Both the position numbers and the translations under genes were made by a program. A stretch of 64,000 bases of DNA from Minisyncoccota bacterium (GTDB lineage Bacteria > Patescibacteriota > Minisyncoccia > UBA6257 > JAGOQP01): contig JBAYWE010000003.1 in the NCBI GenBank assembly GCA_041674185.1, forward strand, positions 896 to 64,895. Direction: 5' to 3'. The notes under the pieces are model-generated. The model saw only the letters and a list, made by a program, of their open reading frames with translations. It was not told where the DNA came from and searched no databases. This document shows, piece after piece, positions 13,127-61,826 of this stretch (within the stretch, counting starts at the first letter, position 1; each line of letters begins with the position of its first letter).

Positions 13127-13150
13127 ACCTCTCCTTATAACAAGTCGAAG

Positions 13151-36897: not shown

Positions 36898-36905
36898 CAA
36901 AATAA

Positions 36906-36935: not shown

Positions 36936-37130
36936 ACAGAAAAAAATGTTCAAATTTTGAATATTAAAAGATGTTTATTATTCTCCATATTTTTTCGCGA
37001 TCGCGAAAAAATATGGAGAATAGTTGAAAAACTATATAACCTTAATACCAATACTGTTATTCAGAAACTTAGCATCATTGCTGTTTCATACTATTCTATT
37101 TGGATATTCTATCTGAGTTACTTGAGCTCA

Positions 37131-37925: not shown

Positions 37926-37940
37926 TGAAAATATATTCAG

Positions 37941-38012
37941 TGCCCCCACCTTGAATCGAACAAGGATCTATCCCTTAGGACGGGACTGTTTTATCCATTA
38001 AACTACAGGGGC
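37941..38012 (-). tRNA. tRNA-Arg (anticodon CCT)
   Basis: The reverse complement is GCCCCTGTAGTTTAATGGATAAAACAGTCCCGTCCTAAGGGATAGATCCTTGTTCGATTCAAGGTGGGGGCA. The anticodon loop is GTCCTAA, and the G at position 32 is unusual. Confidence 0.7.
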
Positions 38013-38066
38013 GATTTGAAAAACCATCTCTTGTATTGTATTATACCAGCGCAGAGAAGAAAAGCT

Positions 38067-38137
38067 GGGCCCATAGTATAGCGGTAGAACGATTCCATGG
38101 CATGGAATAGGTCGGGGTTCGACTCCCCGTGGGTCCA
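38067..38137 (+). tRNA. tRNA-Ala (anticodon GGC)
   Basis: GGGCCCATAGTATAGCGGTAGAACGATTCCATGGCATGGAATAGGTCGGGGTTCGACTCCCCGTGGGTCCA. The G3:U70 Ala identity pair is present and the anticodon loop is ATGGCAT. Confidence 0.85.
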
Positions 38138-38334
38138 CATATATAATCCCTTTGTAGAATTTTTATATGTGAAAAAAAATTTCACAACTACTTATGAAAT
38201 GTCGGGGAGGCGAAGACCGCAGCGTTATGCATTCAGTAGAATGCATCGCGAGGGGCGGCCTGCGAGTTTGTTGAGCGACGGCGAAACAAAACTTGTAGGC
38301 GACTCCCCGTGGGTCCACATATATAATCCCTTTG
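38138..38334 (+). other. GC-rich structured element E2 immediately 3' of tRNA-Ala, ending in a 35-nt direct repeat of the tRNA-Ala 3' end plus downstream bases
   Basis: cgactccccgtgggtccacatatataatccctttg occurs at 38120-38154, where it covers the tRNA-Ala T-loop to the 3' end plus 17 downstream nt. It occurs again at 38300-38334. The body contains perfect hairpins (TGTGAAA-AAAA-TTTCACA; ATGCATTC-AGTA-GAATGCAT) and a GC-rich core homologous to E1. Its 5' CGGGGAG can pair with the CTCCCCG inside the terminal repeat. Confidence 0.55.
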
Positions 38335-38399
38335 GGGATTTTATGTGGAGAGACTTTCCAAATTCTATTATTTTTTGTATAGTATATTTATATATTTAT

Positions 38400-38735
38400 A
38401 TGGAAAAACAACCAAGACTTGATTATGTAAAAACAAAGGAAACAAGAGAAAAAGAAGAGAGAAAATTTGAAAAAGACATCGATCGGGTACGAGATATTAT
38501 GAAGAACGAGAACCCCTACGAAGTCACCGAAGATTCCGAGTTTTTTATAATACATTATCCCCATAAAAATGCCCACATACCCAAAAGACAACACATTCCC
38601 CTCGTGAGAGAAAATGGTCTTATTAAAGATGTCGATATAGAAACGTTTGCACATGCAATCTCTTGTTTTCCAGAAGATGAGTTATTAGAAGCTGTGACAA
38701 AATATGAAAAAGAACACCCCAAAAATCAATCGTAG
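38400..38735 (+). CDS. hypothetical protein (111 aa)
   Basis: Trimmed from ORF 38097..38735, whose 5' part overlaps tRNA-Ala and E2. The start is at the Met of MEKQPRLDYVKTKETREKEERKFEKD... It is Lys/Glu-rich with no recognised family. Confidence 0.35.
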   Translation: MEKQPRLDYVKTKETREKEERKFEKDIDRVRDIMKNENPYEVTEDSEFFIIHYPHKNAHIPKRQHIPLVRENGLIKDVDIETFAHAISCFPEDELLEAVTKYEKEHPKNQS

Positions 38736-38846
38736 TATTTTATAGAGGCGTGCCAAAGTCCTATCTGCGCTCTATCGGCTATAGCCTTTAGCAACGTACG
38801 ATCAGTAGGTATAAGTTCAATATGATATACTCACCTCGTACAATAT

Positions 38847-38935
38847 GGAGGGTTCGCATAGTGGTCTAGTGCGGCGCACTCGAAATGCGCTTGGGGAGTC
38901 AAATCCCCTCACAGGTTCAAATCCTGTACCCTCCG
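38847..38935 (+). tRNA. tRNA-Ser (anticodon CGA, long variable arm)
   Basis: GGAGGGTTCGCATAGTGGTCTAGTGCGGCGCACTCGAAATGCGCTTGGGGAGTCAAATCCCCTCACAGGTTCAAATCCTGTACCCTCCG. It has a 3-bp D-stem, anticodon loop CTCGAAA and a variable stem-loop GGGGA...CCCC. Confidence 0.8.
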
Positions 38936-39024
38936 CACATGAAACTTTACTCACTAAAAGTGAAATACATTTCATTCAAATAATAGAGAGAGTCATCTGA
39001 ATGAACAAGAAGAGACACACATCC

Positions 39025-45813: not shown

Positions 45814-47322
45814 TTATTTCTTATTCATAGTAATCTTGAAAACGATGGTGTTTTGATCTACCTGCGTAATACTTGTGAGAGGAAGTTGTACGTTTGTTAC
45901 AGAGGAAAGTTGCTCAAGTTTCCTTTTGAATTCAATCGCGGATTCTTCTTTATTTGTTCGAGCATTTAACGTAATACCCGAATCTGATGACTGTACATAG
46001 ATTCTATCGATCGCTACCAAGGGACCTGTTTGATTATATAAATCTGAGAGTACTGCGTGCCATCGTACTTGTTGATTTTGTACGGTAGATGCGCGTACTA
46101 CCGCATCATTAAATGCGGTTGCTTCCTGTTTTAATTCATTGTATCGCGTAACACTCGCAGAGGTAATTGAGGTATTCAAATCATCAGAAATAGTTCCCAC
46201 TAAATGGTTTAAAAATATATAAATTCCGATAAATGCCGCGAGAATAATAGTTCCTGATATGAGTATCATCGTACGCCACGCACCAATAAACGTATTTATT
46301 TGCGCTTGCAATAACATGCTTCGTGTATCTTCGGGAGTTAAGCTAATAGCTGTATCTTCTGAGCGGTCAATAACTCCTCGGAGTGCAGCACCTGCCCCCA
46401 CAAACCACGCCTCATCACTTGGTGCATTCGTAACGGTAAGAGGAAACACTCCAAATGAAAATTTATTTTTAAGAACTTCAAGAAGCTGTTTTTCCATAGC
46501 TCCCCCTATAATATATACTCCCGCAATAGGATCGTGATGCCTCCCTACAAAAAAGTTAGTCACCTGATGTATCTCTCGTATAATAAGCGTTGCAAAATCT
46601 GAAAAAATAATATCTCGCGTTGCGTGTATTTCTTTTAAAATTGTTTGCCATGAAGAAAATTTATCAAAGCAAAGATGTCCTCGAGTAATCACAGCCATAG
46701 TGATTCCATCACCTCCTATATGAAGTAATAAATATGATTTTGTTTTTACAAATGATGGTTCGCGTTGCACAATAAAACGAGCAAGAGACATGGACCTATG
46801 TTCAATTGCAACAGCTGAAAATCCCCCCTTTCTCAAACATCTTAAAAATATATCAATGATAGACTTTTCTACAAAAGAAGAAATAATTTCTACATCTGGA
46901 ACGTGTACCGTGGATTCTATTTTTTCCCATCCAGAATATGCCTCAGAAAAATTAATGGGAGAAATCGTCTGCATATTAAGTCGGACAGCCTCCTCAAACG
47001 ATCCCTCTGACAACTGAGGAAGGGTAAATAATTGCGTAAAAATATTCTCATCAGAAATAGTTACAATAACTGGAATTTCCTTTTTTTCTTTTGAGGTGAT
47101 CTGTTTATGTAACAGTTTTAGACTTTTTATAAATGCTTCTTGTTGTTTTATTTTTCCCTCTTGAATAATACCCGCTTCGAGAGGAACTGAATGCCGAGTA
47201 ACTCGGAGTGTTTCTGGCGCGATAGAAAAAAACACAATTCCTGCATCAGTTATTTCAAGCCCCCCAATCTCAATTTGAGGACGTACAATTCGTATAATTT
47301 TCTTTAGAAATAAAATATTCAT
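45814..47322 (-). CDS. type IV pilus assembly protein PilM-like fused to a PilN/PilO-like C-terminal region
   Basis: The N-terminal ~330 aa match an actin-like ATPase-fold PilM pattern. They are followed by a single TM helix (TMILISGTIILAAFIGIYIF) and a coiled-coil/periplasmic region as in PilN. The call rests on sequence pattern, not an HMM hit. Confidence 0.5.
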   Translation of the reverse strand: MNILFLKKIIRIVRPQIEIGGLEITDAGIVFFSIAPETLRVTRHSVPLEAGIIQEGKIKQQEAFIKSLKLLHKQITSKEKKEIPVIVTISDENIFTQLFTLPQLSEGSFEEAVRLNMQTISPINFSEAYSGWEKIESTVHVPDVEIISSFVEKSIIDIFLRCLRKGGFSAVAIEHRSMSLARFIVQREPSFVKTKSYLLLHIGGDGITMAVITRGHLCFDKFSSWQTILKEIHATRDIIFSDFATLIIREIHQVTNFFVGRHHDPIAGVYIIGGAMEKQLLEVLKNKFSFGVFPLTVTNAPSDEAWFVGAGAALRGVIDRSEDTAISLTPEDTRSMLLQAQINTFIGAWRTMILISGTIILAAFIGIYIFLNHLVGTISDDLNTSITSASVTRYNELKQEATAFNDAVVRASTVQNQQVRWHAVLSDLYNQTGPLVAIDRIYVQSSDSGITLNARTNKEESAIEFKRKLEQLSSVTNVQLPLTSITQVDQNTIVFKITMNKK

Positions 47323-47401
47323 GAGTCTTCGTTCCTGTCTTTTAGTATAATATAAAAACTATCGATTCACAAAATAAATCTGTCGCACCATGCTACTTTA
47401 T

Positions 47402-47860
47402 TTATAACTCGGTCAGTGACTGTTGATTTACTGAACCCAAATAACCATCTACCACAAAGATACTTTGAATTTGCACTCTCTTTGTTAATGCTCTTCCTGT
47501 TGCCACAACAGTATATTGACTAAATCGTGAGTCAATTGGTGTTTTTGTTACTGCAACTTGAACTGTAAAACTTCCTACTTGTATAGTATATGGACTTATT
47601 GAAGGTACCCAATCTTTGTTTCGTGCAATATGTAATAGTACATCAGAGATACCTGATTCCGCAGCTGCGGTCGCACTATATGACGCGCGTACCCCCATTC
47701 CTTGTTCACCCACTAGATACGCAACAACAAGCCCTACTAAAGCAGTTTCCATAATCACCGTACCAATAATCATTACCGTAGTAATAGAAACAACACCTCT
47801 CCGTACAGAATAATTCGAAGACGAACGAAGTTTTTGAAATATATTCAAAATCATATACAT
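47402..47860 (-). CDS. hypothetical membrane protein in the pilus-like cluster
   Basis: An N-terminal hydrophobic helix (VVSITTVMIIGTVIMETALVGLVVAYLV) followed by a Ser/Thr-rich beta-rich region. It has no canonical prepilin motif. Confidence 0.35.
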   Translation of the reverse strand: MYMILNIFQKLRSSSNYSVRRGVVSITTVMIIGTVIMETALVGLVVAYLVGEQGMGVRASYSATAAAESGISDVLLHIARNKDWVPSISPYTIQVGSFTVQVAVTKTPIDSRFSQYTVVATGRALTKRVQIQSIFVVDGYLGSVNQQSLTEL

Positions 47861-47871
47861 AGTCGTTATGT

Positions 47872-49479
47872 TTATTTACTCCAGTTAATCATTGATCCCA
47901 TGACTATAGGACCGGCTCCCCCACTGGGATTCAGGAAAATTTTATATCTAAAATATCGATAGTTATGAAAATTTTCTACATCAACTGATATATTAGAAGA
48001 TGCAGGAGAAAAATACGTTGATCCAGAGCCATCATATCCAGCATACCCCCATGGCCCGTCGGCATTGTTCGACATTGCGATCTGAAACTTTACATTTGTT
48101 CCCACCGGCTGTACCCCTTGCCATAACACACTATTAATCGCTGCACCTTGCGGTGTTTGAGTATCAAGTGTTGCTGACTCAAGCCATCCACTCACCGTAG
48201 TTGTTGCAAGACTAATCTGCCCCACCGTTGAAGTTGCGATATTATACGATGCAGCAAACGTACTGGTTGCGCTGGTAGTTGTTCCTGTGTTTCCAGGCCC
48301 TCCACTCCAATTATTATTATGTAATACAAAAATAGTATTTCTCATAAAATAATGGTAGAGCTGTAATTGTCTCCCCCCTTCCCACGTGACTCCCACAGTT
48401 ACTTTCTGAGTTGAAGGATCAACCACCCCTCCACTTGAAACAATATTTAAGTTTGTATCTCTATTTGTATTCTCTGTGAAAAAATATCTGTCATAAATAG
48501 GACTTTCATAAAGGCTTTTTATTTCTTCCGCACTTAATGCGCGATTATAGACCCGCGCATCATCAACAAGACCATTTAATCTGTAATTACCCACATACGC
48601 ATACGACCACTGTCCTACAAATATTTTATCAGGAGTAAACCTAACTGTTTTACTTAAATTCCACTTACTATCAAATTCACCGTTGATATAAAAACTAATG
48701 GAATTATCGTTTGTGCTGTATATAAGAACAACGTGGGACCACGTATTCGTGGGTACCACAAAATTACTTTGTTTAGAATTATATTCTCTCGTCCCATCGG
48801 TATATCCTATAGATGGAGCAAATCTACTGCTCACAATATTGATTCCGATATTTGATGGAACGGTATAATTATGAGTCGTTAAAACTCCAACCAGACTACT
48901 AACTGCTCGTGGATACACCCATACGGAATATGTTTGATCTGAACTTAAAGACACATCATTATCGCTCTTCGCATATGCATTATTAGTCCCATTAAAATCT
49001 AGGCATCCACCCGCTATACAACCGGGGGAAGAGATACGAGCAGGATCTCCTGTTGTAACTCCATCATTTCCATTTCCTGAAGTATCATATGTGGTTGTTC
49101 CTATATCTTCATCAAACTTCCACTGCCCTATCAACCCAGCAGTCACATCATTATATAAAACACTTTCAGTACCTGGAATAATAACGGTTGCTGATCCTCG
49201 TTGATTTAAAAAATAGTGATTCGTAGATCCTTTTGAAAGGTCATATAGTCCATGCCAATCTGAATTAGCTAATAACTGTACCTGATTTAAAACATCGTTT
49301 GCATATCCCGACGCAGCTTGATTTCCTCGCGTCTCAAAACTGTAGCGTAAAATAGAAGTTACCCCTAACGTTGCTCCTAACAAAAACATACCTCCCACAA
49401 ACAACGAAATTAACAACTCGATGAGAAGTTGTCCGTCATTTGCGTTTTTAAGCTTTTTGAAAAAATCTAACATACACAA
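47872..49479 (-). CDS. type IV pilin-like protein with a LamG/concanavalin-like domain
   Basis: The N-terminal class-III-type signal DGQLLIELLISLFVGG has Gly at -1 and Glu at +5. A W.FDEDIG....D.SGNGNDG motif is typical of the LamG-like jellyroll. Confidence 0.55.
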   Translation of the reverse strand: MCMLDFFKKLKNANDGQLLIELLISLFVGGMFLLGATLGVTSILRYSFETRGNQAASGYANDVLNQVQLLANSDWHGLYDLSKGSTNHYFLNQRGSATVIIPGTESVLYNDVTAGLIGQWKFDEDIGTTTYDTSGNGNDGVTTGDPARISSPGCIAGGCLDFNGTNNAYAKSDNDVSLSSDQTYSVWVYPRAVSSLVGVLTTHNYTVPSNIGINIVSSRFAPSIGYTDGTREYNSKQSNFVVPTNTWSHVVLIYSTNDNSISFYINGEFDSKWNLSKTVRFTPDKIFVGQWSYAYVGNYRLNGLVDDARVYNRALSAEEIKSLYESPIYDRYFFTENTNRDTNLNIVSSGGVVDPSTQKVTVGVTWEGGRQLQLYHYFMRNTIFVLHNNNWSGGPGNTGTTTSATSTFAASYNIATSTVGQISLATTTVSGWLESATLDTQTPQGAAINSVLWQGVQPVGTNVKFQIAMSNNADGPWGYAGYDGSGSTYFSPASSNISVDVENFHNYRYFRYKIFLNPSGGAGPIVMGSMINWSK

Positions 49480-49584
49480 TTTTTAAGCACACATTTTTGA
49501 ATTTTTAAATAAGGTATCAATGTTTTAAATTTTAAAAATTAGGTTTTATTTATAAAATTACAAAATTAAAAATTATAAAACTTT

Positions 49585-50712
49585 CTAATAGCTCTCATAT
49601 AATGCTTTCACCTCACTTGTTGCAAGCGCACGATTATACACCCGCACATCATCTAATAATCCCTTTACCCTATCCCAATGTCCAGAGAAAAAAAGTGGAT
49701 TTGATTGATACGATATTGACCCTGTTACTGTCTGACATTCCTTCATAACTCCATTCATATAAATACATTGCTGTTTTGATGTATTATCAAAAGTTCCCGT
49801 GAGATACACCCACTCATTCCAATTTATTTTCTGCGTTCCAAAATATTGACCCGTAAGACCATTTAATCCCCACTTAAAAGTTCCATCAGAATTTACTTCA
49901 GTCGTATATCCATACCACGTAGTTACCAACACGTGCCGTTTTGATTGATTTTGTAGATTAGCCCAAAAACTAAGCGTTATAGAACTCGGTTTATAAGTCG
50001 CATTATTGGGAATACTGATTTCATCATTAATTCCATCAAAACCCAAACACCCCCCTGTCCTGCACAGTCCTGAACTTGAAGATTGCCATGTTGGACTATT
50101 ATTGAGAGTTCCTGTATGTCCTTTCCCCGATGCATCATACGCGTTCACTCCTATCTCCTCGTCAAGAGGCCAATATGCCACCAAATCTTTTCCCGATAAT
50201 TGACTTACGGATGATGATTTACTAACGGAGATAATATTCGCATCACCTCCCGCTGCTGTTTGAATACCAACGGTTTGTGCTACATCTGGCACTCCTGTTG
50301 TTTTAGAAAAAATAATAACCTTAGAAAAACCAGTTGAAGGATTAGAAAATTTTGAAGCACGGCTCAATGTTTGAGTTGTTACTACTGAAGATGTGGTATA
50401 TGTGGTACCTGAAAATATCTGGTAGGTATCACTTTCTGAACCAGTACTGGGATTAAATTTAATTCCCCACGCAGTCCCCTCCTCTCCTAAAATAGCTTTA
50501 TTTTGAGCACTACGAATACCTTCTAATATATTGGTACTATCTAATTGAAAACTGTGACGATTCTTATAACTCGTTAAATTGAGAATACCTATTCCAGTAA
50601 TAATAGAAAGAATTGTTACGGAAATAAGCATTTCTATCAACGTAAATCCTCCCCGCGCAGAATACGATGGTGTACAAATTTTATTATATTCTTCTCTGAA
50701 CGCATCTTTCAT
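49585..50712 (-). CDS. type IV pilin-like protein with a LamG/concanavalin-like domain
   Basis: A canonical prepilin N-terminus, RGGFTLIEMLISVTILSIITGIGIL, and an AYWPLDEEIGVNAYDASGKGHTG LamG-like motif. Confidence 0.6.
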   Translation of the reverse strand: MKDAFREEYNKICTPSYSARGGFTLIEMLISVTILSIITGIGILNLTSYKNRHSFQLDSTNILEGIRSAQNKAILGEEGTAWGIKFNPSTGSESDTYQIFSGTTYTTSSVVTTQTLSRASKFSNPSTGFSKVIIFSKTTGVPDVAQTVGIQTAAGGDANIISVSKSSSVSQLSGKDLVAYWPLDEEIGVNAYDASGKGHTGTLNNSPTWQSSSSGLCRTGGCLGFDGINDEISIPNNATYKPSSITLSFWANLQNQSKRHVLVTTWYGYTTEVNSDGTFKWGLNGLTGQYFGTQKINWNEWVYLTGTFDNTSKQQCIYMNGVMKECQTVTGSISYQSNPLFFSGHWDRVKGLLDDVRVYNRALATSEVKALYESY

Positions 50713-53715: not shown

Positions 53716-54578
53716 TTTACGATTCCCGACATCGTAAGATATAATAATAGAAACAAATAAATATGAGAAAAATATCTTTCTCCAATGACGGTATCTATCA
53801 TATTTTTAATAGAGGAGTCGATAAAAGAACTATATTTCTAGAAGACGGTGATTATTTTAGATTCATACATGATTTATATGAATTTAATGACGAATCACCA
53901 GCGGAGAATATTTATTACAAAACCTCCTCCTTACAATCTTACGATGTCGGGAATCGTAAGATACAAAAAAAGGTGCGAACCTTACTTGTTGATATTATTG
54001 CATTTTGTATAATGCCCAATCATTTTCATTTACTTGTAAAACAACGTGTAGAAAATGGCATTACATTGTTTATGAAAAAACTCGGAGGAGGATATGCAAA
54101 TTATTTTAATACAAAAAATGAACGATCAGGAACCTTGTTTCAAGGACGGTTTCAGGCAGTTCCTATTGATACAGATGAATATCTCACGTACATTCCATTT
54201 TATATTCACGCCAACCCCATAGAACTGTATGATCCAGGGTGTAAAGAATCTGGTTTTTCAAAAAACAAAAAAGATGTTTTACATTTCTTAGAATCTTATA
54301 GGTGGTCAAATTTTCCAGATTGTATAGGTAAGAAAAATTTTCCCTCGGTTACACAAAGAGATTTTATTCTGAATTATTTTGGCGGACCTCTTCAATATAA
54401 AAAATATATGCTGAATTGGATGGATCGATTTGCTTCTTCAAAAATTTCTGCAAATACAACTACAAAAATAGAAGTGTCGGACAGAGACATGCGAGATATC
54501 ACCCTAGACTAGAGACTAGACTCGAAACTACTAGACTAAAAGTTATATTTATGTTCTTACGATTCCGGGAATCGTAAG
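53716..54578 (+). mobile_element. IS200/RAYT-like HUH transposase unit with REP-like hairpins
   Basis: Three copies of the 23-bp imperfect palindrome CTTACGAT-N7-ATCGTAAG lie at 53716-53738 (upstream, inverted loop), 53938-53960 (inside the CDS) and 54556-54578 (downstream). They bracket the transposase gene 53763..54512. Confidence 0.5.
53763..54512 (+). CDS. IS200/IS605-family (Y1 HUH) transposase / REP-associated tyrosine transposase-like
   Basis: YHIFNRG near the N-terminus, the HUH motif MPNHFHLLV, and a catalytic Tyr region YIPFYIHANPI, matching the Y1 transposase (Transposase_17) pattern. A C-terminal extension of about 100 aa is present. Confidence 0.65.
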   Translation: MRKISFSNDGIYHIFNRGVDKRTIFLEDGDYFRFIHDLYEFNDESPAENIYYKTSSLQSYDVGNRKIQKKVRTLLVDIIAFCIMPNHFHLLVKQRVENGITLFMKKLGGGYANYFNTKNERSGTLFQGRFQAVPIDTDEYLTYIPFYIHANPIELYDPGCKESGFSKNKKDVLHFLESYRWSNFPDCIGKKNFPSVTQRDFILNYFGGPLQYKKYMLNWMDRFASSKISANTTTKIEVSDRDMRDITLD

Positions 54579-54741
54579 ATGGGTACGGGGGGAAGGGGGC
54601 GCAGAAAAGTTGTACACATTTTTTCATAGCGTATTACCCGTGAATACGGTATACTATCTGTATGTACTATAGTATATGTATAGATACTATTCATTTATAC
54701 ATTCACTGTACTATATATAATACACAGTTAGTACCACACGT

Positions 54742-57700
54742 ATGATACGCGTACCATTTTTACAACAGCGGAGAGGTTTTTCGTTGGCCGAACTTATTAT
54801 CTATTTGGGTATTCTCGGTATATCAGCCGGGATTTTCGGTGGTATGTTAAATACCATCAGCACTACTCAAATTGCGGAGTTTAATCAGAATGAAGTTTCT
54901 GGACAATTAAACTTTGCTATACAAACTATTCAACGTTATGTACGCGCGGCAAGTATTATAGAAGGAGAATCAGGAATTCCGAGTTCTACGCTTGTATTAC
55001 AGATGCCTGTTGCCGCACAAAATCCAACAAGCATTTCTCTGCAGAATAATCGTATTTATATTACTCAGGGAGCAACGGGGACACCACTTGCCATTACGAA
55101 TGATAAAGTTTCTATTGATAATTTAGAATTTCGTCGTTTTGCACAACCTGCCTCAAAAGATGTTGTCCAAATTGATATTGCTATCTCACAAGAATCAGCC
55201 GGAGGAAAACGTATTGCTCGTTCATTGCGCTCCGCTATTACTCGTGTGAACGCCGCTGCATTTGATAGCGATCTTATTCCTAATTCCGACGGTTCATATA
55301 ATGTGGGTACGTACCCTTCCGCACGATGGCGTGACGGATCATTTTCTGGACAAGTTTCCGCTGGATCATTTTGTTTTGCTTCTGATTGTCGTACATCGTG
55401 GGCAAACATCGCAGGAGTAAGTGGAAGTGGAAGCGCAAATTATATTGCAAAATGGAATACTGCAAGTACCATTAACGCCTCAACTCTTATTTATGATAAC
55501 GGCACCAATGTAGGAATCGGTGCTATTAACCCTGGATACAAACTCGATGTACAAGGCGGACAAATTAATACTTCAGGTGGACTTTGTATTAACGGTGATT
55601 GTAAAACAGCGTGGTCTCAAATTGCGGGCACCCAGGCGTGGACGGCAACCGGAACCAGTATTTATTACAACACGGGAAATGTAGGGATTGGAATGGTAAA
55701 TCCGGGATCAAAACTAGATGTTTTAGGTGATATTCGATCAGGAACTTCGTACCGAACCAGCATCCAAGGAGATGGTTCTGGAGCAAGGGTTCTATTTGGA
55801 TCTGAAGGAGATCCAGATTATTTAGGTATTATTGGAGCTTTCGCATCAATGATGCAAATTGATAGTTATAATGGACCACTTGTATTTAAGGAGGCTGGTT
55901 CTGAAAAAGTTAGAATTACTTCCGGTAACGTTGGCATTGGAACAACAGCACCTGGTGCCAAACTACATGTTTCTGGAGGGAGTATTTTAATGGATAATAA
56001 CCTTGCATTTAAATTCAAAGATTCCACAGGAACTGCACAAAATGTATTCTTCGCTGGTACTGATAACGTACTCTATATTCAACCGCTTAACGTAACCAAG
56101 GGAACTTCTATTCAATATGGAAATCTTGGTGTAGGTACTAACGTACCCACCGCAAAGCTACAAGTGAATCCCGGAACCGCGGTTGAAGGAATTCGTATTA
56201 TTTCGAGTGACTACTCCCCTTTTATTATTCGTAACTCTGCCGACACTGCTGATTTGTTCCGCGTAGATCAAAATGGAAATATTACTGGAGGAACAGGAAA
56301 TGCAAGTGCATGGACACGTAATTCAACCAGTGGCTATTTATATACAAGTACTTTAACCGACAAAGTTGGTATTGGAACAGCAACACCCGGAACCTATAAC
56401 GGCGTCGTATCTGGTTTAGAAGTAAAAGGATCTAGTCATACCGGAATAGCGATTAATTCTCCAACGGATTATGCGGCAAGTCTTACTTTGGCTGAAAATA
56501 ATAATCCTATGTGGCACTTACTCTCCAGAGGAGATTCTGCTAATAGATTTGAATTATATGCTGCTGATGGAACAAGTAATGGAGCAAAAATAACTGTATT
56601 GCAAGGTGGAAATGTGGGTATTGGAACGATAGCACCAACATCAAGATTGGTAGTAAGTTCCTCAGGTATATCAGCTGGAACACCAGAATTTGTTGTTGGT
56701 GATTATGGAACAATAAAATTAAAAACATATCAAACTGGAAGTACTTATGCTGCGATTTATACAGGAGCTAATGAAGATTTAAGAATTACTGCTGGGACAG
56801 ATAGTTCTCAATTAGTATTAAAAGCAAACAATGGAAACGTCGGTATCGGGACTGCCTCCCCTGCTCAAAAACTATCTGTTGCGGGAACTATAGAATCAAC
56901 TTCAGGTGGTGTTAAGTTTCCTGACGGCACCACACAAACCACTGCATATGCAGGAGGGACTCAAACAATTGTTTCCGGAAATGTTTCCTCAGGTGCGTTT
57001 GGTAGTAATACGGGGGGTGGAAATTATAGTTTTCCGGGTAATGTGGGGATAGGGACAACAAGTCCGGGAAAAACCTTGCATGTGGTAGGCGATGTTCGTG
57101 GTGGAGCTTATTATAATACGAACTCTGGCGACGGTTGGTTGATAAATCAGGATTCGGGAACAAACCGAGGACTATATTATTACAATACCGCAGGAACTTG
57201 GGATTTCTTTGACGGAGGTACATCAAAGGTAAGTATCAACACCAGTGGGAATATACAAATGGACGGAGTATTAACAATAAGTGGGACAGGAAATACAACA
57301 ATAGCCGGTAACGTCGGTATCGGAACAACGGCACCTCAATCTACTGTTAAACTTGATGTTCGACAAAGCCTCACAAACGGCACTGCTATTGCTGGATATG
57401 TTTATGACGCTACCCAAGAAATAACGGCACTATACGGTGTTGCCTATCCAACAACAGGTAGCGCGGCAGCGTATGGAATGCGAGGTGAGGCAGGTGGCAC
57501 ACGTACAACTGGAACAAATATCGGTGGTTACTTTTCTGCAAGTGGTGCAACAAATAATTATGCTTTGATTACAGGAGGTGGCAACGTCGGTATCGGTACT
57601 GCCTCCCCTGCTCAAAAACTATCTGTTGCGGGAACTATAGAATCAACTTCAGGTGGTGTTAAGTTTCCTGATGGTACTACACAGACAACTGCATATGCAG

Positions 57701-59970
57701 GAGGAACCCAGACAGTGGTAGCGGGAAATGTATCTTCGGGTGCGTTTGGTGCAAATACTGGCGGTGGAAATTATAGTTTTCCAGGTAATATGGGAATTGG
57801 AGTAGCAAGTCCTTCGTATAAATTGGAGATTGGAGCTTTGAGTGGTTCTGTAGAACCCACGAGCTTGAAAATAAATGGTGGTGCAACCAATGTTACTCAG
57901 ATTCGTATTGGTGATAACTATACCGCAGCAGTTGGTACTCGATATTCTGGAGCAGAGGCTTACCTATCGAGTAACTCTTATCAGAATACATTAGGAGCTG
58001 ACTCATGGGCTAAAACAGCAACCACATACGGATCAACCATGCTTTCTTTGGGAATTAGTTCTACTTTAACTTCACCAGCACTTCAAGTTAAATTTTCTCC
58101 GGCAAGTACAGCAAATGGAGCTATAGCCTCTTTCTTCCCAAATGATTTATTTACTATTCTCGGTAATGGAAGTGTTGGTATTGGAACGGTATCACCCGGA
58201 GGAAAATTAACTGTGGATGGATCTGGAGAGACACTCATTAAGTTGCAATCAGGTGGCACTGAGTTTGGTGAAATCGGCACCTATTCGAGTGGTTTGATAA
58301 TAGGTACCAATACCGCTGTTCCGTTGACTTTAGAAACCAGCAATACGGCAAGAGTAACTGTTCTCGGTGGTGGTAATGTGGGTATTGGAACGACGAGTCC
58401 GGGAGCAAAATTACATATCCAAACTGATACCTCAGGAACGCAAATACCATTTGATATCTACGGATATAGAACAGCAGCACCAGCAAGTGCTACTCATTTA
58501 GCCCAAATATCTCAAATAGGAACTTATGGCCAAGGTGTTTTGGATCTATATAACTCCGCCCAGGTTAGTGCTATTCATCTTGCAACAGATGGTAACAGTT
58601 ATATAGTACCGCAAAATTCTGGCAACTTTGGTATCGGAACCACTACTCCTGCTACAGCACTTCATGTCGTTGGTACAGTAACCGCGAGTGCTTTTAGTGG
58701 TGCTCTTTCAGGAACGGTAACCGCCCCGAATGTATCTTCTGGTGCGTTTGGTGCAAATACCGGAGGTGGAAATTATAGCTTCCCTGCTAATGTCGGTATT
58801 GGAATTGCAAGTCCGGGAAGCCAGCTACATGTTTATTCAGCAACAACAGGTATCTTTACTTTAGAGGGGGCTACTACAGGTGCTTATACGGCAGCTGACA
58901 TGCTTCTAAAAAGCAGCGGCTCATCTGGTATGCGGGGTACAGGAGTATTTATGTATGATTCTCTAGCACAGAAAGAATGGTATGCGGGAACTCCATATAG
59001 TGCTACTGATTCTTACATGATTGGAAGAAAATCCTCGGTTGCTAGTCACGATTCATCGATTGCCCAAACATCAAACGCTCTATTGGTTATTAATAACACC
59101 GGCAACGTCGGAATTGGAATAGCAAATCCGGTAAAAAAATTACAGGTACATGGAGATATAGCCCTATCAAATGGAGGAAGGATCGGACAAGGAAATGGAT
59201 GGGGCACTGATGGTAATTCTTATAATGCGACTTTAGAACTATATAATGGAGCAACCGGATATACTACTCTACAATCCGCAACAGCTTATGGGATATTACT
59301 CAATCCTTCGGGTGGCAATGTCGGCATCGGGACGACGGCACCGAACTATAAACTACATACTTATGTTGCTTCTGGAAATACAGAAAATAGATTTCAGACT
59401 GCTGGAACAGGATATGCTGCACTAAGCTTAATTAATAACACAAATAATTTATATGTAGGAGTTAATGATAGTATAGGAACAGGAATGTTTTCTTCGGGAG
59501 GTATAGCAAATGCTGGAGCATTATATACCCTTGGGAGTTATCCATTACAATTAGGAACTTCAAATCTTCCCAGAGTTACAATTGACAGCGCCGGCAACGT
59601 CGGCATCGGGACGACGGGGCCTACCCATAAACTTGATGTATCTGGTTCATTTTATTCTCGTCTTATTACCAAGGGCAATTGTACTGGTGCGGTTACCATT
59701 GATTGGAATGCAGGAAACACCCAACATTGTGTACTTACCGGAAATGTGACCTTCACCTTCTCAAATGGACAAAGCGGAGGTAACTATAAATTGGTCTTAA
59801 AACAAGGCGGTACCGGATCATACACGATCACGTGGCCTGGAACGGTGCGTTGGGGTGGAGCTGTCTCCCCCACACTCACCACTACCGTGGGTAAGAGCGA
59901 CTATGTAGGATTCTTCTACAACGGAGTAGATAGTACGTATGACGGAAATGCATTTAATGCAAACTTCTAA
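54742..59970 (+). CDS. giant (1742 aa) pilin-like protein with a class III signal peptide and tail-fibre-like GNVGIGTTxPxxKLxV repeats
   Basis: The N-terminus QQRRGFSLAELIIYLGILGISAGIFGG has G-F at the cleavage site and Glu at +5. The body holds more than 20 copies of a (G)NVGIGT(T/A)SPxxKL(H/S)VxG motif, which resembles the phage tail-fibre repeat (Phage_fiber_2-like) consensus. The repeats are separated by Gly/Thr/Ser-rich beta segments. Confidence 0.65.
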   Translation: MIRVPFLQQRRGFSLAELIIYLGILGISAGIFGGMLNTISTTQIAEFNQNEVSGQLNFAIQTIQRYVRAASIIEGESGIPSSTLVLQMPVAAQNPTSISLQNNRIYITQGATGTPLAITNDKVSIDNLEFRRFAQPASKDVVQIDIAISQESAGGKRIARSLRSAITRVNAAAFDSDLIPNSDGSYNVGTYPSARWRDGSFSGQVSAGSFCFASDCRTSWANIAGVSGSGSANYIAKWNTASTINASTLIYDNGTNVGIGAINPGYKLDVQGGQINTSGGLCINGDCKTAWSQIAGTQAWTATGTSIYYNTGNVGIGMVNPGSKLDVLGDIRSGTSYRTSIQGDGSGARVLFGSEGDPDYLGIIGAFASMMQIDSYNGPLVFKEAGSEKVRITSGNVGIGTTAPGAKLHVSGGSILMDNNLAFKFKDSTGTAQNVFFAGTDNVLYIQPLNVTKGTSIQYGNLGVGTNVPTAKLQVNPGTAVEGIRIISSDYSPFIIRNSADTADLFRVDQNGNITGGTGNASAWTRNSTSGYLYTSTLTDKVGIGTATPGTYNGVVSGLEVKGSSHTGIAINSPTDYAASLTLAENNNPMWHLLSRGDSANRFELYAADGTSNGAKITVLQGGNVGIGTIAPTSRLVVSSSGISAGTPEFVVGDYGTIKLKTYQTGSTYAAIYTGANEDLRITAGTDSSQLVLKANNGNVGIGTASPAQKLSVAGTIESTSGGVKFPDGTTQTTAYAGGTQTIVSGNVSSGAFGSNTGGGNYSFPGNVGIGTTSPGKTLHVVGDVRGGAYYNTNSGDGWLINQDSGTNRGLYYYNTAGTWDFFDGGTSKVSINTSGNIQMDGVLTISGTGNTTIAGNVGIGTTAPQSTVKLDVRQSLTNGTAIAGYVYDATQEITALYGVAYPTTGSAAAYGMRGEAGGTRTTGTNIGGYFSASGATNNYALITGGGNVGIGTASPAQKLSVAGTIESTSGGVKFPDGTTQTTAYAGGTQTVVAGNVSSGAFGANTGGGNYSFPGNMGIGVASPSYKLEIGALSGSVEPTSLKINGGATNVTQIRIGDNYTAAVGTRYSGAEAYLSSNSYQNTLGADSWAKTATTYGSTMLSLGISSTLTSPALQVKFSPASTANGAIASFFPNDLFTILGNGSVGIGTVSPGGKLTVDGSGETLIKLQSGGTEFGEIGTYSSGLIIGTNTAVPLTLETSNTARVTVLGGGNVGIGTTSPGAKLHIQTDTSGTQIPFDIYGYRTAAPASATHLAQISQIGTYGQGVLDLYNSAQVSAIHLATDGNSYIVPQNSGNFGIGTTTPATALHVVGTVTASAFSGALSGTVTAPNVSSGAFGANTGGGNYSFPANVGIGIASPGSQLHVYSATTGIFTLEGATTGAYTAADMLLKSSGSSGMRGTGVFMYDSLAQKEWYAGTPYSATDSYMIGRKSSVASHDSSIAQTSNALLVINNTGNVGIGIANPVKKLQVHGDIALSNGGRIGQGNGWGTDGNSYNATLELYNGATGYTTLQSATAYGILLNPSGGNVGIGTTAPNYKLHTYVASGNTENRFQTAGTGYAALSLINNTNNLYVGVNDSIGTGMFSSGGIANAGALYTLGSYPLQLGTSNLPRVTIDSAGNVGIGTTGPTHKLDVSGSFYSRLITKGNCTGAVTIDWNAGNTQHCVLTGNVTFTFSNGQSGGNYKLVLKQGGTGSYTITWPGTVRWGGAVSPTLTTTVGKSDYVGFFYNGVDSTYDGNAFNANF
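56839..57800. repeat. near-identical internal DNA repeats (period 747 bp) within the giant pilin-like gene
   Basis: gtcggtatcgg(g/t)actgcctcccctgctcaaaaactatctgttgcgggaactatagaatcaacttcaggtggtgttaagtttcctga occurs at 56839 and 57586. A third, more diverged copy lies near 58736. Confidence 0.6.
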
Positions 59971-60035: not shown

Positions 60036-60608
60036 ATGACTATAGATAAAAAGACTTTATATATTATCATCGGTGTTGTGGTACTTATCATCGCAGGACT
60101 TATTGGATTACTTCTTGCACAAAGTGATAACACCTCTTCTTCAGCCAATCCAGCTAATCCAACTTCTCAAGATGGAGGCTCAGGAACTCCCCTTTCTGAG
60201 ACACACGCAGAAGTTCCTCAAGACATAGAGGTTCCTGATTTAAGCGCAACTGCTACCAGTGTTCCTGAGGACGTTGCTATCCCCAAAGCAGTTACTTCTG
60301 CCGCCCCTGGTGTTTCTGCTTCATTACGCGTATTTGAAATTAAAGGAGAGAATGGTACCTTTAGTCCTTCAACGGTTATTGCCTACACCGGAGATACGAT
60401 ACATGTGAATTTTACCGCCGTTGATAAAGAATATGATATTACGTTTCCTGACTATAATATGAAACAAACGGCATCAAAAGGACAAACAAAAGTTCTTGAG
60501 TTTCAAGCACAAGCAACAGGGAAATTTACCTACTACTGTGATCTCTGTGGTGGATTAAAATCAAAAGCTGTTGGATATATTATTGTAGCTCCTCTGAAGA
60601 CTCAATAA
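60036..60608 (+). CDS. membrane-anchored protein with a cupredoxin-like C-terminal domain (paralog 1 of 3)
   Basis: TM helix, a Ser/Thr/Pro-rich linker, then FSPSTVIAYTGDTIHVNFTAVDKEYDITF...GKFTYYCDLCGG...GYIIV. This resembles the cupredoxin beta-sandwich pattern but lacks the full Cu-ligand set. Confidence 0.35.
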   Translation: MTIDKKTLYIIIGVVVLIIAGLIGLLLAQSDNTSSSANPANPTSQDGGSGTPLSETHAEVPQDIEVPDLSATATSVPEDVAIPKAVTSAAPGVSASLRVFEIKGENGTFSPSTVIAYTGDTIHVNFTAVDKEYDITFPDYNMKQTASKGQTKVLEFQAQATGKFTYYCDLCGGLKSKAVGYIIVAPLKTQ

Positions 60609-60718
60609 ATAAATCTTTTTATTTATCATAAAAACCGTGTTACCTGACACGGTTTTTATATACTTACTTTATGCTATACTAATACATATATTTTTGTGAG
60701 AAAGAATACGTTTCACCT

Positions 60719-61270
60719 ATGCACAAAATTTTAAACCATACCAAAGTTATTTTTGTTATTGTAGGAGTTTTTCTTCTCTGCGGCATTGCTCTGATTATGT
60801 ATTCATCCTCTCCTACTAATTCTCATCAAGACACCTCTCTTATAACACCTATTGCTTCATCAACCACACCTTCTGTATCATCTATCCCCCAACCATCATT
60901 TCAACCATTTACAGAACAACATCCTGATTCTTATACTCTGTCAAAACCAGACCAACTTATTCCTGCACCTATAAAAACAAACGACACCAGAAAGACAAAA
61001 TTGTTTTATTTACAGGAAACGATTGATGGATTTACTCCCGATCATATTGTTATTGAACGAACTGATCGTGTGCGTATTCAATTTACTGCAGTTGATGATG
61101 CATACGATCTTGCTATTGCTCCTCCTATTGGAGCCTACATTGCCGCGGCGCATGGAGGCTCTACTTTATTTGGATTTGACGCACATTATATTACCCCTGG
61201 CATATATACTTTTGTCTGTCAGAAGTCGTGTCCCCCTCGTTACGCACAGGGAACTCTGGTTATTAAATAA
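60719..61270 (+). CDS. membrane-anchored protein with a cupredoxin-like C-terminal domain (paralog 2 of 3)
   Basis: The same architecture as paralog 1: FTPDHIVIERTDRVRIQFTAVDDAYDLAI...GIYTFVCQKSCPPRYAQGTLVIK. Confidence 0.35.
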   Translation: MHKILNHTKVIFVIVGVFLLCGIALIMYSSSPTNSHQDTSLITPIASSTTPSVSSIPQPSFQPFTEQHPDSYTLSKPDQLIPAPIKTNDTRKTKLFYLQETIDGFTPDHIVIERTDRVRIQFTAVDDAYDLAIAPPIGAYIAAAHGGSTLFGFDAHYITPGIYTFVCQKSCPPRYAQGTLVIK

Positions 61271-61325
61271 CAAATGCAGTATAATATTTATATATTAGTA
61301 ATTAATAAGTAACACATAAAAAAAT

Positions 61326-61826
61326 ATGAGTACTGAAAATGGTGGATCAACAAAATCCACAAAAATAGTCACCGGCGTGGTGGCAGTTATCGTTATTATT
61401 ATTATTGCGTTGTTTGTTTTCCTCTCCCCCTCTTCACCGGAGTCAACAACAGACACCACAAACCCAGCTACTGAAGATAGCGCCCTTCCTCCTGAAAATG
61501 CGTCTACTACCGGTGGCGCTGCAGGTGGCGCATTTGGTGATATAAAAGATGTTGATAAGATTTATGAAATAAAAATGGATAAGGGAGCATTTAGTCCTGT
61601 GAGTACTGTTGTTTCTAAGGGCGCAGTTGCTCGTATCGCTTTTTCTGCAATAGATGGGGATTACAATGTTTCATTTGCATCTCCTATTGATATGAATATC
61701 AATTTGAAAAAAGGACAAGCAGCACTCGTTCCGTTTGATGCTCAGAAAAATGAATCGGGAGAATATGCATTTACCTCAAAAGATGCTGAAGGAAAAACCA
61801 TGACGGGAAAAATTGTTATCAAATAG
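61326..61826 (+). CDS. membrane-anchored protein with a cupredoxin-like C-terminal domain (paralog 3 of 3)
   Basis: The same architecture as paralogs 1 and 2: FSPVSTVVSKGAVARIAFSAIDGDYNVSF...GEYAFTSKDAEGKTMTGKIVIK. It contains no Cys. Confidence 0.35.
   Translation: MSTENGGSTKSTKIVTGVVAVIVIIIIALFVFLSPSSPESTTDTTNPATEDSALPPENASTTGGAAGGAFGDIKDVDKIYEIKMDKGAFSPVSTVVSKGAVARIAFSAIDGDYNVSFASPIDMNINLKKGQAALVPFDAQKNESGEYAFTSKDAEGKTMTGKIVIK

What the first reader, a model, noticed from the sequence alone, without database searches (positions are those of the whole stretch)
54742..59970. Giant pilin-signal protein with more than 20 tail-fibre-like repeats and large near-identical internal duplications
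One ORF of 5229 bp combines a type IV pilin-type leader with an array of (G)NVGIGTxSPxxKLxVxG repeats. Internal segments of about 220 bp recur at a 747-bp spacing with near-perfect identity (56839 versus 57586), and a third copy lies near 58736. Such recent intragenic duplications suggest copy-number or antigenic variation by recombination. In a metagenome-assembled sequence they could also cause the assembler to collapse repeats. The AT-rich region just upstream (54600..54741) holds several TACTAT-containing direct repeats that could be regulator binding sites.
Basis: seen in the sequence. Interest (0 to 1): 0.62.

Follow-up and report, generated by a model that had tools for sequence, protein, structure and literature searches.

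The report
Pilin-headed phage-like fibre adhesin
A tiny, probably host-dependent bacterium (Candidatus Paceibacterota) encodes a 1742-residue surface protein that joins a type IV pilin head to a long phage-tail-fibre-like shaft and a phage-fibre end domain, most likely a device for grabbing a host cell; its internal repeats are mostly old, not recent duplications.

Summary
The ORF (54742..59970, +, 1742 aa) is real. The identical protein is deposited as a hypothetical protein of a Candidatus Paceibacterota MAG.

It has three parts:
- A prepilin leader (RRG|FSLAE, Glu+5) and a confidently modelled helix-plus-sheet module, aa 1-170.
- A shaft with 18 (not more than 20) GNVGIGTxxPxxKL motifs. It is homologous to Bdellovibrio MAT fibres (PDB 8OND, E 2e-17) and to phage tail-fibre families.
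- A 100-aa end domain shared with the C-termini of phage tail fibres.

The "near-identical" 220-bp duplicates are 87% identical, with dS about 0.46 and dN/dS about 0.08. They are old and constrained. The exception is a 93-nt tract with 2 mismatches, which looks like gene conversion.

Syntenic orthologues in five related genomes keep both ends (about 80-90% aa identity) but have entirely different shafts, 973-1793 aa long. The N-terminal module defines a large family (546 clusters at E<1e-10). All 13 named genome loci recovered are Patescibacteria.

My best reading is a modular minor pilin that trimerises through its fibre, as CofB does, and is displayed on a type IV pilus as a host-binding adhesin.

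I rate this a new variant of known kinds, of moderate interest. The TACTAT repeats are real but are absent from the orthologous loci.

The parts
54606..54656 (+). Conserved upstream block (AAGTTGTRCACATTTTTT...GGTATACTA) holding the palindrome TTGTACA/TGTACA. Candidate promoter or operator of the fibre gene.
   Evidence: It aligns at 78-84% identity with the corresponding intergenic block in the orthologous loci L001 and L003. The palindrome is I6. Function is inferred only.
54657..54741 (+). AT-rich leader with the TACTAT repeats (54652, 54665, 54685, 54709; inverted copy at 54669). About 66 nt of it is specific to this genome. It can form a long imperfect hairpin.
   Evidence: The enrichment is real. 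The stretch is absent from L001 and L003. The fold z-score is -2.3. The 31-nt core has no other copy in the window.
54742..54777 (+). Prepilin (class III) leader peptide, aa 1-12, ending in Gly-1.
   Evidence: Sequence MIRVPFLQQRRG|F. A profile of the family matches the leader and alpha1N of solved pilins: Geopilin at E 2.5e-4 and PilA at 0.012.
54778..55251 (+). Pilin module, aa 13-170. It has Phe+1, an invariant Glu+5, a 55-residue helix (aa 15-69) and a seven-stranded sheet.
   Evidence: The AF2 model with a 37-sequence alignment has block-mean pLDDT of 85-98 over aa 11-170. E17 is invariant in all 37 sequences. N_methyl is hit by 32 of 37 members. There are weak hits to ComGF, ComGE and GspJ. 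Foldseek against the PDB gave no significant match.
55252..55503 (+). Junction, aa 171-254. It holds the conserved FDSDLIPxxDGSYxxGxxxxRW motif and the first CxxxxC pair (C211, C216). A second pair (C282, C287) follows within the first shaft units.
   Evidence: F174, D175, P180, G189 and W196 are nearly invariant. Profile positions 174-209 weakly match a phage tailspike, 6EU4, at E 0.0045. The AF2 model has low confidence here.
55504..59658 (+). Fibre shaft, aa 255-1639, with 18 GNVGIGTxxPxxKL motifs 55-128 aa apart. It is rich in Gly, Thr, Ser and Ala.
   Evidence: Motif list and composition are. Hits: phrog_9942 at 2e-37 and phrog_18345 at 2e-21; PDB 8OND (Bd2133) at 2e-17 and 8OJN at 4e-7.
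56832..57065 (+). Duplicated module, copy A (aa 698-775). Its first 93 nt (56832-56924) are nearly identical to copy B.
57579..57812 (+). Duplicated module, copy B (aa 947-1024), 747 nt downstream of copy A.
   Evidence: 86.8% nt identity. Over the 72-codon core, 68 of 72 aa are identical, dS is 0.46 and dN/dS is 0.08.
58729..58814 (+). Partial third copy (NVSSGAFGANTGGGNYSFPxNVGIG sub-module).
   Evidence: 81% and 86% nt identity to copies A and B (79% and 86% by blastn). dS is 0.6-1.3. The same sub-module occurs in many distant homologues, such as P0002-P0005, P0024, P0030 and P0077.
59659..59970 (+). Distal end (tip) domain, aa 1640-1742, plus the stop codon. It is a beta-rich domain with one Cys pair (C1647, C1663).
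   Evidence: It matches the C-terminal ends of phage tail-fibre PHROGs (phrog_19976, 9017, 7760, 22179). It also matches the C-terminus of the annotated tail fibre of Microcystis phage Mel-JY34 (49.5% identity, E 2e-15). Identity to orthologues is 79-90%. P0011, which has a different N-terminus, shares it at 74%. No solved relative was found by sequence.
60036..61826 (+). Three co-directional genes for small membrane-anchored cupredoxin-like proteins (60036-60608, 60719-61270, 61326-61826). They are possible accessory partners.
   Evidence: Pfam Cupredoxin_1 at 9e-9, 9e-3 and 1.7e-6. A cupredoxin-like gene directly follows the fibre gene in L001, L003, L006 and the more distant L007. A functional link is inferred from synteny only.

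Best explanation
The gene encodes a modular type IV (minor) pilin. A prepilin leader and a pilin module of about 160 aa form the handle. A roughly 1400-aa beta-rich fibre of the phage-tail-fibre / Bdellovibrio MAT type is grafted onto it, ending in a 100-aa domain of the kind found at the distal end of phage tail fibres.

Proposed mechanism:
1. The protein is inserted into the membrane and the leader is cut after Gly12 by the prepilin peptidase.
2. Three copies trimerise through the fibre.
3. Their three pilin modules form the first layer (the cap) of a type IV pilus, as the CofB homotrimer does in E. coli.
4. The tip domain is thereby held tens of nanometres from this very small cell, where it binds a surface structure of a host or partner cell.
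5. Pilus dynamics then bring the two cells together.

Shown here: the three-part architecture, the homologies, the conserved synteny, and the pattern of conserved ends with a remodelled shaft.

Inferred: leader cleavage, trimerisation, location on a pilus, and the adhesin role.

The shaft is an evolutionarily plastic spacer built from old, constrained modules that are shuffled by recombination. One gene-conversion tract is visible inside this gene.
For: Pilin head:
- The leader has Gly-1, Phe+1 and Glu+5, and Glu+5 is invariant in 37 family members.
- A family profile matches the leader and alpha1N of solved pilins at E 2.5e-4.
- N_methyl is hit by 32 of 37 members.
- ComGF, ComGE and GspJ minor-pilin models are weakly hit by 28, 21 and 11 of 37 members.
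- The AF2 model has block-mean pLDDT of 85-98 for aa 11-170, with a 55-residue N-terminal helix and a beta-sheet.

Fibre:
- PDB 8OND Bd2133 at E 2e-17 and 8OJN at 4e-7. MAT fibres are crystallographic trimers with a VG..P...L capping-loop motif (PMC10769870).
- PHROG tail-fibre families at 2e-37 and 2e-21.

Tip:
- It matches the C-terminal ends of phage tail-fibre families and of an annotated phage tail fibre.

Family:
- The N-terminal 255 aa find 1535 cluster representatives at E<1e-3 and 546 at E<1e-10.
- Of the best 150, 127 have the prepilin motif and 123 have at least one fibre motif.
- All 13 loci in named genomes are Patescibacteria.

Context:
- The gene sits in a housekeeping neighbourhood (lepA, divIC, leuS) that is syntenic in related genomes.
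- A PilM-like gene and two lectin-carrying pilins lie 4-9 kb upstream.

Precedents:
- Modular pilins are widespread and are thought to be tip-located. The published survey already lists pilins carrying the S74 tail-fibre chaperone domain IPR030392 (PMC8179133).
- The minor pilin CofB homotrimerises through its C-terminal beta domains and caps the pilus (PMC6048534).
Against: - This protein itself falls just under Pfam's N_methyl cut-off (18.2 and 21.0 bits against 21.2) and passes no NCBIfam pilin model.
- Foldseek of the N-terminal model against the PDB gave no significant pilin match (best E 5.5e-3, to streptavidin). The other fold libraries were unavailable.
- No PilB, PilC, PilD or PilT gene lies in the window. 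The gene is not inside a pilus operon, and in the more distant locus L007 no pilin cluster is nearby.
- Trimerisation and pilus incorporation were not modelled or measured.
- Three bulky fibres must be compatible with pilus geometry. That is known only for CofB/TcpB, to which no sequence similarity was found.
Confidence: 0.55

Rival explanations
1. A membrane-anchored surface fibre that is not part of a pilus. The prepilin-like N-terminus serves only for export and as a membrane anchor. It might form a very short stub, as in archaeal class III signal-peptide surface proteins or type II secretion pseudopili. The trimeric fibre projects directly from the cell envelope, like Bdellovibrio MAT fibres.
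For: - The shaft is homologous to MAT fibres, which are cell-surface or vesicle-associated and not pilus-borne.
- The gene is not in a pilus operon, and no pilus ATPase or peptidase gene is in the window.
- Many fibre homologues in Patescibacteria have ordinary signal or transmembrane N-termini instead of the pilin head. Only 13 of the 120 best full-length hits have the pilin motif. P0011 carries the same tip on a non-pilin N-terminus.
Against: - Glu+5, which pilins use for packing into the filament, is invariant.
- A complete 160-aa globular pilin module is conserved at about 90% among orthologues. That would be unnecessary for a mere anchor.
- Short family members of 200-300 aa look like ordinary minor pilins.
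Confidence: 0.27
2. One reading: a contingency or antigenic-variation locus in which recent intragenic duplications change the repeat number within a population.
For: - A 93-nt tract with 2 mismatches lies inside otherwise 79%-identical copies (P about 1e-4), which suggests recent gene conversion.
- Orthologues differ greatly in shaft length, 973-1793 aa.
Against: - The duplicates have dS about 0.46 and dN/dS about 0.08. The third copy has dS of 0.6-1.3.
- Only 5 DNA-level self-matches exist in 5.2 kb, and there are no tandem arrays.
- There are no donor cassettes or paralogues in the window.
- The compared genomes are only about 80% identical in lepA. The length differences are therefore between species, not between strains.
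Confidence: 0.1
3. Assembly artefact or prophage remnant: the long ORF is a chimera or collapse of repeats, or a phage tail-fibre gene left in the chromosome.
For: - It is a metagenome-assembled contig, and repeats are present.
- Strong matches to phage tail-fibre families.
- An IS200-like transposase gene lies next door.
Against: - The longest exact internal repeat is 74 nt and the contig was built at k=141.
- The ORF is uninterrupted, and an independent genome holds a comparable 1793-aa orthologue.
- No phage genes flank it. The locus is syntenic with housekeeping genes in five other genomes.
Confidence: 0.05

Closest known systems
Bdellovibrio bacteriovorus MAT (mosaic adhesive trimer) fibres, e.g. 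Bd2133 (PDB 8OND) and the 8OJN fibre (PMC10769870)
   Same: - The shaft is homologous: E 2e-17, including the identical sub-module GNVGIG..P..KL.VAGTI.STSGG[VI]KFPDG..QTTA.
- It has the same VG..P...L capping-loop motif.
- Tips are interchangeable.
- The carrier is a bacterium that attaches to other cells.
- This protein resembles the non-S74 subgroup, since no Peptidase_S74 domain is present.
   Different: - MATs start with a Sec signal peptide and a conserved 130-aa beta-rich domain. Here the N-terminus is a prepilin leader plus a pilin module.
- The tip has no detectable sequence relative among solved MAT tips.
- The organism is a Patescibacterium, not a predator of the Bdellovibrio type.
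Modular type IV pilins (Streptococcus sanguinis PilB/PilC; survey in PMC8179133)
   Same: - A pilin module carries a grafted functional module.
- The organism is a monoderm-type lineage.
- Two lectin-carrying pilins of the PilC kind lie 4-7 kb upstream.
- The published survey already lists pilins fused to the S74 tail-fibre chaperone domain, and an 860-residue repeat pilin from a CPR bacterium.
   Different: - The grafted part here is about 1570 aa, roughly ten times the pilin module. It is of a kind that is trimeric in the solved relatives.
- It carries no domain signature in Pfam or NCBIfam, so a domain-based survey would not have listed it.
CofB / TcpB, type IVb minor pilins that cap the pilus as homotrimers (PMC6048534)
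   Same: The proposed way of working is the same: an N-terminal pilin domain, C-terminal beta-rich domains that homotrimerise, a location at the pilus tip, and a distal lectin-like domain that mediates attachment.
   Different: - No sequence similarity was detected in the PDB searches.
- CofB has two compact beta domains, not a long fibre.
- It belongs to type IVb pili of diderm enteropathogens.
Phage tail fibres / receptor-binding proteins (PHROG 9942, 18345, 9017, 7760, 19976; Microcystis phage Mel-JY34 tail fibre)
   Same: Both the shaft repeats and the distal domain are homologous. The distal domain occupies the C-terminal end in the phage proteins too.
   Different: - It is a chromosomal gene in a conserved housekeeping neighbourhood with no phage genes.
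- The N-terminus is a pilin rather than a baseplate- or tail-attachment domain.

Membership tests
Type IV pilin (class III signal peptide proteins) | A short basic leader ending in Gly, then Phe/Met+1, Glu+5 and about 20 hydrophobic residues. | tested here: met
   MIRVPFLQQRRG|FSLAELIIYLGILGISAGIFGG. Glu is invariant and Phe nearly invariant in the 37-sequence family alignment.
Type IV pilin (class III signal peptide proteins) | Curated model score: Pfam PF07963 N_methyl at 21.2 bits or more, or TIGR02532 at 16.3 bits or more. | tested here: inconclusive
   18.2 bits for the full protein and 21.0 bits for the 260-aa fragment, both just under the cut-off. There is no NCBIfam hit for this protein. 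Thirty-two of 37 relatives hit N_methyl at E<=0.01, and relative P0124 passes TIGR02532 at 19.4 bits.
Type IV pilin (class III signal peptide proteins) | Lollipop fold: an alpha1 helix of about 50 residues packed on an antiparallel beta-sheet. | tested here: inconclusive
Type IV pilin (class III signal peptide proteins) | Cleavage and methylation by the prepilin peptidase, and polymerisation by a type IV filament machinery. | not testable with these tools
   Only a PilM-like gene and two other pilins are in the window. PilB, PilC and PilD were not found in the 64 kb. Type IV pilus genes are reported as near-universal in CPR genomes (introduction of 10.64898/2026.03.03.709456).
Bdellovibrio MAT fibre family | A beta-helical fibre with the recurring capping-loop motif V-G-G/N-pi-x-x-P-x-x-x-L, and homology to solved MAT shafts. 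| tested here: met
   There are 18 motifs. 8OND matches at E 2e-17 over aa 561-757, and 8OJN at E 3.7e-7. The trimeric state itself was not tested.
Bdellovibrio MAT fibre family | A Sec signal peptide followed by the conserved beta-rich N-terminal domain of about 130 aa. | tested here: not met
   The N-terminus is a prepilin leader plus a helix-sheet pilin module. The definition is from PMC10769870. The MAT N-domain sequence itself was not available for a direct comparison.
Bdellovibrio MAT fibre family | A variable C-terminal tip, either with the S74 chaperone-protease or without it (NS74). | tested here: met
   There is no Peptidase_S74 hit, so it is NS74-like. Tip swapping is seen: the same tip sits on a non-pilin N-terminus in P0011 (74% identity), and the same pilin head carries other tips in P0007, P0008, P0024 and P0030.
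Phage tail fibre (as a phage gene) | Encoded among phage structural genes, with an N-terminal domain that docks on the tail or baseplate. | tested here: not met
   The neighbours are lepA, divIC, leuS, pilins and cupredoxin-like genes, and the locus is syntenic in five genomes.
Modular pilins (sensu Raynaud et al. 2021) | An N-terminal pilin module fused to an additional module that is not specific to pilus biology. | tested here: met
   The pilin module spans aa 1-170. The tail-fibre-type shaft and tip span aa 255-1742.
CofB/TcpB trimeric initiator minor pilins | Sequence or fold relationship to CofB or TcpB. | tested here: not met
   No CofB or TcpB chain appeared among the PDB sequence hits for the protein or for the N-terminal profile. 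The resemblance is functional only.

The most novel reading that the evidence does not exclude
Patescibacteria of the Paceibacteria/Parcubacteria type cap their type IV pili with homotrimers of pilin-headed, phage-like fibres. The tips are exchangeable and phage-derived. Host recognition by these episymbionts would then work like phage receptor binding mounted on a retractable pilus. The pilin-fibre family (hundreds of clusters) would be the host-range determinant, and the shaft, which is remodelled between species, would set the reach.
Probability: 0.35. Interest if true: 0.75.

Novelty: new variant of a known kind. Interest (0 to 1): 0.5.

Why it matters
How ultrasmall Patescibacteria find and hold their hosts is largely unknown. 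Type IV pili are implicated in the few cultivated Saccharibacteria (abstract of PMC12206443, seen).

This gene family would give a concrete, testable candidate for the recognition device in the uncultivated Paceibacteria: a pilin handle, a fibre homologous to Bdellovibrio prey-recognition fibres, and a phage-type distal domain.

It also shows that the same fibre toolkit is shared between phages, predatory bacteria and episymbionts, and that it can be mounted on a pilin.

In practice, the tip domains could be expressed and used as probes to identify hosts. For annotation, the family has no Pfam or NCBIfam model beyond the leader and is deposited as 'hypothetical protein'.

Tried and rejected
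- **Single-sequence AF2 of aa 1-385.** This failed with mean pLDDT 35.5. It was repeated with a 37-sequence alignment.
- **Word-index homology searches.** The N-terminal fragment and the tip returned only 6 and 15 proteins. The exhaustive HMMER search was needed to size the family.
- **Genome scan.** Alignment A2 was too diverse for the search for related loci. A narrower alignment, A4, gave 13 loci. The taxonomic picture therefore covers close and middle-distance relatives only.
- **Cluster look-up.** This gave no organism names.
- **PF26209.** It is precomputed for several tip homologues but did not appear in the local Pfam scan, so I cannot name it.
- **Tandem-repeat interpretation.** Rejected, because TRF finds no array.
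- **DGR or cassette-type variation.** No similar DNA exists elsewhere in the window. A reverse transcriptase was not looked for systematically in every ORF.
- **Riboswitch or known RNA in the leader.** Rfam finds only tRNAs in the window.
- **Pam pili of CPR bacteria** (10.64898/2026.03.03.709456). [quoted passage not shown]
- **Prophage origin.** Rejected on context.
Full report
**1. What is there**

The window is chromosomal DNA of a small-genome bacterium. It has about 37% G+C, 12 tRNA genes and housekeeping genes such as dnaE, gyrB, leuS, thrS, lepA, murein ligase and a PBP.

The ORF 54742..59970 (+) is uninterrupted and encodes 1742 aa. The identical protein is deposited as [quoted passage not shown]. 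It lies on a 73,496-bp MEGAHIT k141 contig.

**2. The N-terminus is a pilin head, not just a leader**

- The sequence MIRVPFLQQRRG|FSLAELIIYLGILGISAGIFGG has the Gly-1, Phe+1, Glu+5 signature.
- Pfam N_methyl scores 18.2 bits on the whole protein and 21.0 bits on the fragment. The cut-off is 21.2.
- An exhaustive HMMER search with aa 1-255 finds 1535 cluster representatives at E<1e-3, 546 at E<1e-10 and 113 at E<1e-30.
- Of the best 150, 127 carry the prepilin motif and 123 carry at least one fibre motif. Lengths run from about 200 to 1930 aa.
- In an alignment of 37 members, Glu+5 is invariant and Phe+1 is nearly invariant.
- Thirty-two of the 37 hit N_methyl.
- Many hit the minor-pilin models ComGF (28), ComGE (21) and GspJ (11). 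These hits are far below the curated cut-offs and lie mostly in the helix.
- A profile of the alignment matches the leader and alpha1N of solved pilins at E 2.5e-4.
- AlphaFold2 with this alignment gives block-mean pLDDT of 85-98 for aa 11-170. The model has a 55-residue helix (aa 15-69) followed by a seven-stranded sheet.
- Foldseek against the PDB gave no significant hit and the other fold libraries were unavailable. The fold assignment is therefore plausible but not confirmed.
- After the pilin module comes a conserved junction, FDSDLxP...G....RW. It weakly matches a phage tailspike, 6EU4, at E 0.0045.

**3. The shaft**

- The motif GNVGIGTxxPxxKL occurs 18 times, at irregular spacings of 55-128 aa. 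TRF finds no tandem array.
- The region hits phage tail-fibre families: phrog_9942 at 2e-37 and phrog_18345 at 2e-21.
- Among solved structures it hits only the Bdellovibrio MAT fibres: Bd2133 (8OND) at E 2e-17 and 8OJN at 3.7e-7.
- MAT fibres are homotrimeric beta-helical fibres with a VG..P...L capping-loop motif and interchangeable adhesive tips. They are used for prey recognition (PMC10769870).
- No Peptidase_S74 domain is present.
- A full-length search finds 1757 homologues at E<1e-10. The few that sources name are mostly from Patescibacteria, and many carry S74. Only 13 of the best 120 have a pilin-type N-terminus.

**4. The tip**

- The last 100 aa or so match the C-terminal ends of several phage tail-fibre PHROGs.
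- They also match the C-terminus of the annotated tail fibre of Microcystis phage Mel-JY34: 49.5% identity, E 2e-15.
- There is no solved relative by sequence.
- P0011, a 2149-aa fibre with an ordinary hydrophobic N-terminus, carries the same tip at 74% identity.
- Conversely, proteins with the same pilin head (P0007, P0008, P0024, P0030, P0077) end in different domains.
- Heads, shafts and tips are therefore exchanged as modules.

**5. The internal duplications**

- Copies 56832-57065 and 57579-57812 are 747 nt apart and 86.8% identical. Of the 31 mismatches, 23 are at third codon positions.
- Over the 72-codon core, 68 of 72 residues are identical, dS is 0.46 and dN/dS is 0.08. This is an old duplicate under purifying selection.
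- Part of the module is conserved even in Bd2133.
- The NVSSGAFGxNTGGGNYSFP sub-module, including the partial third copy at 58729-58814, recurs in many distant homologues.
- Identity is patchy. The first 93 nt have 2 mismatches and include a 74-nt exact run, while the remaining 141 nt are 79% identical. A run that long is reached in about 1 of 10^4 permutations of the mismatch positions.
- I read this as a gene-conversion tract between the copies.
- Only five DNA-level self-matches exist in the gene, and there is none elsewhere in the window.
- The longest exact repeat (74 nt) is shorter than the assembly k-mer (141), so a collapse is unlikely.

**6. Comparison with relatives**

- Loci L001/L009, L003 and L006 come from genomes about 80% identical in lepA DNA. 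They have the same order: leuS, PilM-like gene, small gene, two lectin pilins, SurA-like gene, divIC and lepA on one strand, then the fibre gene and cupredoxin-like genes on the other.
- Their fibre proteins share the first 295 aa (89.5-92% identity) and the last 125 aa (about 90%) with this one. Their lengths are 999, 973 and 1075 aa, and the shafts are unrelated or rearranged.
- A further orthologue, L011, is 1793 aa with 19 motifs. Its tip is 79% identical and its shaft only about 30% identical.
- The shaft is therefore the plastic part and both ends are kept. These are differences between species, not between strains.
- All 13 loci found in named species-representative genomes are Patescibacteria: Paceibacter, Paceibacterota, Parcubacteria, Wolfebacteria, and two labelled Saccharibacteria.

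**7. Upstream region**

- TACTAT is significantly enriched. The repeats lie in a stretch of about 66 nt that is missing from L001 and L003.
- In those two loci the start codon follows the conserved block AAGTTGTRCACATTTTTT...GGTATACTA by about 20 nt.
- The extra stretch is partly palindromic and could fold. It has no other copy in the window.
- The conserved block at 54606-54656 is the better candidate for promoter or operator function.
- An IS200-like Y1 transposase gene (53763-54512) lies between lepA and the fibre gene in this genome only.

**8. Mechanism**

The architecture fits the 'modular pilin' concept, a pilin module presenting a grafted functional module, probably at the pilus tip (PMC8179133).

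The apparent conflict between a trimeric fibre and a pilin has a precedent. The minor pilin CofB homotrimerises through its C-terminal beta domains, caps the pilus and mediates attachment (PMC6048534).

I therefore propose a homotrimeric, pilus-capping, phage-like adhesin. The main rival is a membrane-anchored fibre that uses the pilin head only as export signal and anchor.

Cleavage, trimerisation, localisation and ligand are all inferred.

**9. Novelty**

- Each component is known, and pilin-S74 fusions appear in a published domain survey.
- I found no paper in the held library that describes pilin-headed tail-fibre or MAT-like fibres in Patescibacteria.
- The recently described CPR Pam pili are unrelated.
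- I rate this a new variant of known kinds, of moderate interest.

Noticed in passing
window 53763-54512 (+), and 54555-54579: An IS200-like Y1 tyrosine transposase gene (Pfam Y1_Tnp, 3.3e-9) sits between lepA and the fibre gene. It is absent from the orthologous loci L001, L003 and L006. A perfect 12-bp-stem hairpin (TCTTACGATTCC-G-GGAATCGTAAGA) and CTAGACTA repeats follow it.
   Followed up: partly
window 60036-61826 (+); L001, L003, L006, L007 downstream of the fibre gene: Three paralogous small proteins, each with an N-terminal membrane helix, a low-complexity linker and a cupredoxin-like domain, follow the fibre gene. At least one such gene follows it in every locus examined, including a distant one (52% head identity). 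On reading, the usual copper ligands (His, Cys, His, Met) are not evident, so they may be structural partners rather than redox proteins.
   Followed up: partly
window 61827 to beyond 64000 (+): A long ORF runs off the window and, off the contig end. It encodes a Cys-rich protein with at least 12 tandem repeats of about 38 aa (TRTRYxxLTSACGTYGxxSETQxCQSSGSWSGSYxLTSPPS). The assembly breaks inside it. The local G+C rises to 45%.
   Followed up: no
window 45814-50712 (-): A small pilus-related cluster: a PilM-like protein (502 aa), a 152-aa membrane protein, and two large pilin-like proteins carrying concanavalin-A/Laminin_G_3 lectin modules (535 and 375 aa; the latter has RGG|FTLIEML). These are modular pilins of the S. 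sanguinis PilC type. The cluster is conserved in L003 and L006.
   Followed up: partly
window 7202-11287 (-): Another giant protein (1361 aa), made largely of fibronectin-III / purple-acid-phosphatase-N type domains, with a weak match to a phage tip-attachment protein J Ig-like domain.
   Followed up: no
window 54605-54622; L001 about 4099-4149; L003 about 7933-7988: The palindrome TTGTACA/TGTACA (TTGTGCACA in the relatives) lies within the conserved upstream block. It is a possible operator conserved across three species.
   Followed up: partly
protein P0004 (locus L006 6001-9228): In this orthologue the shaft between the conserved head and tip is largely replaced by short NTAVGYxAL-type repeats that resemble trimeric autotransporter (YadA-like) head repeats. 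Different classes of trimeric repeat may therefore be interchangeable in the shaft.
   Followed up: no
window aa 174-200 of the ORF (55261-55341): The junction motif FDSDLIPxxDGSYNVGxxxxRWRDGxFSG is nearly invariant in the family and weakly resembles a segment of a phage tailspike (6EU4, residues 571-606). It may be the point where trimerisation starts.
   Followed up: no
window 12545-13420 and 36433-38936: Two tRNA clusters (Trp, Thr, Thr, Tyr; and His, Phe, Arg, Pro, Arg, Ala, Ser). These are ordinary features.
   Followed up: no
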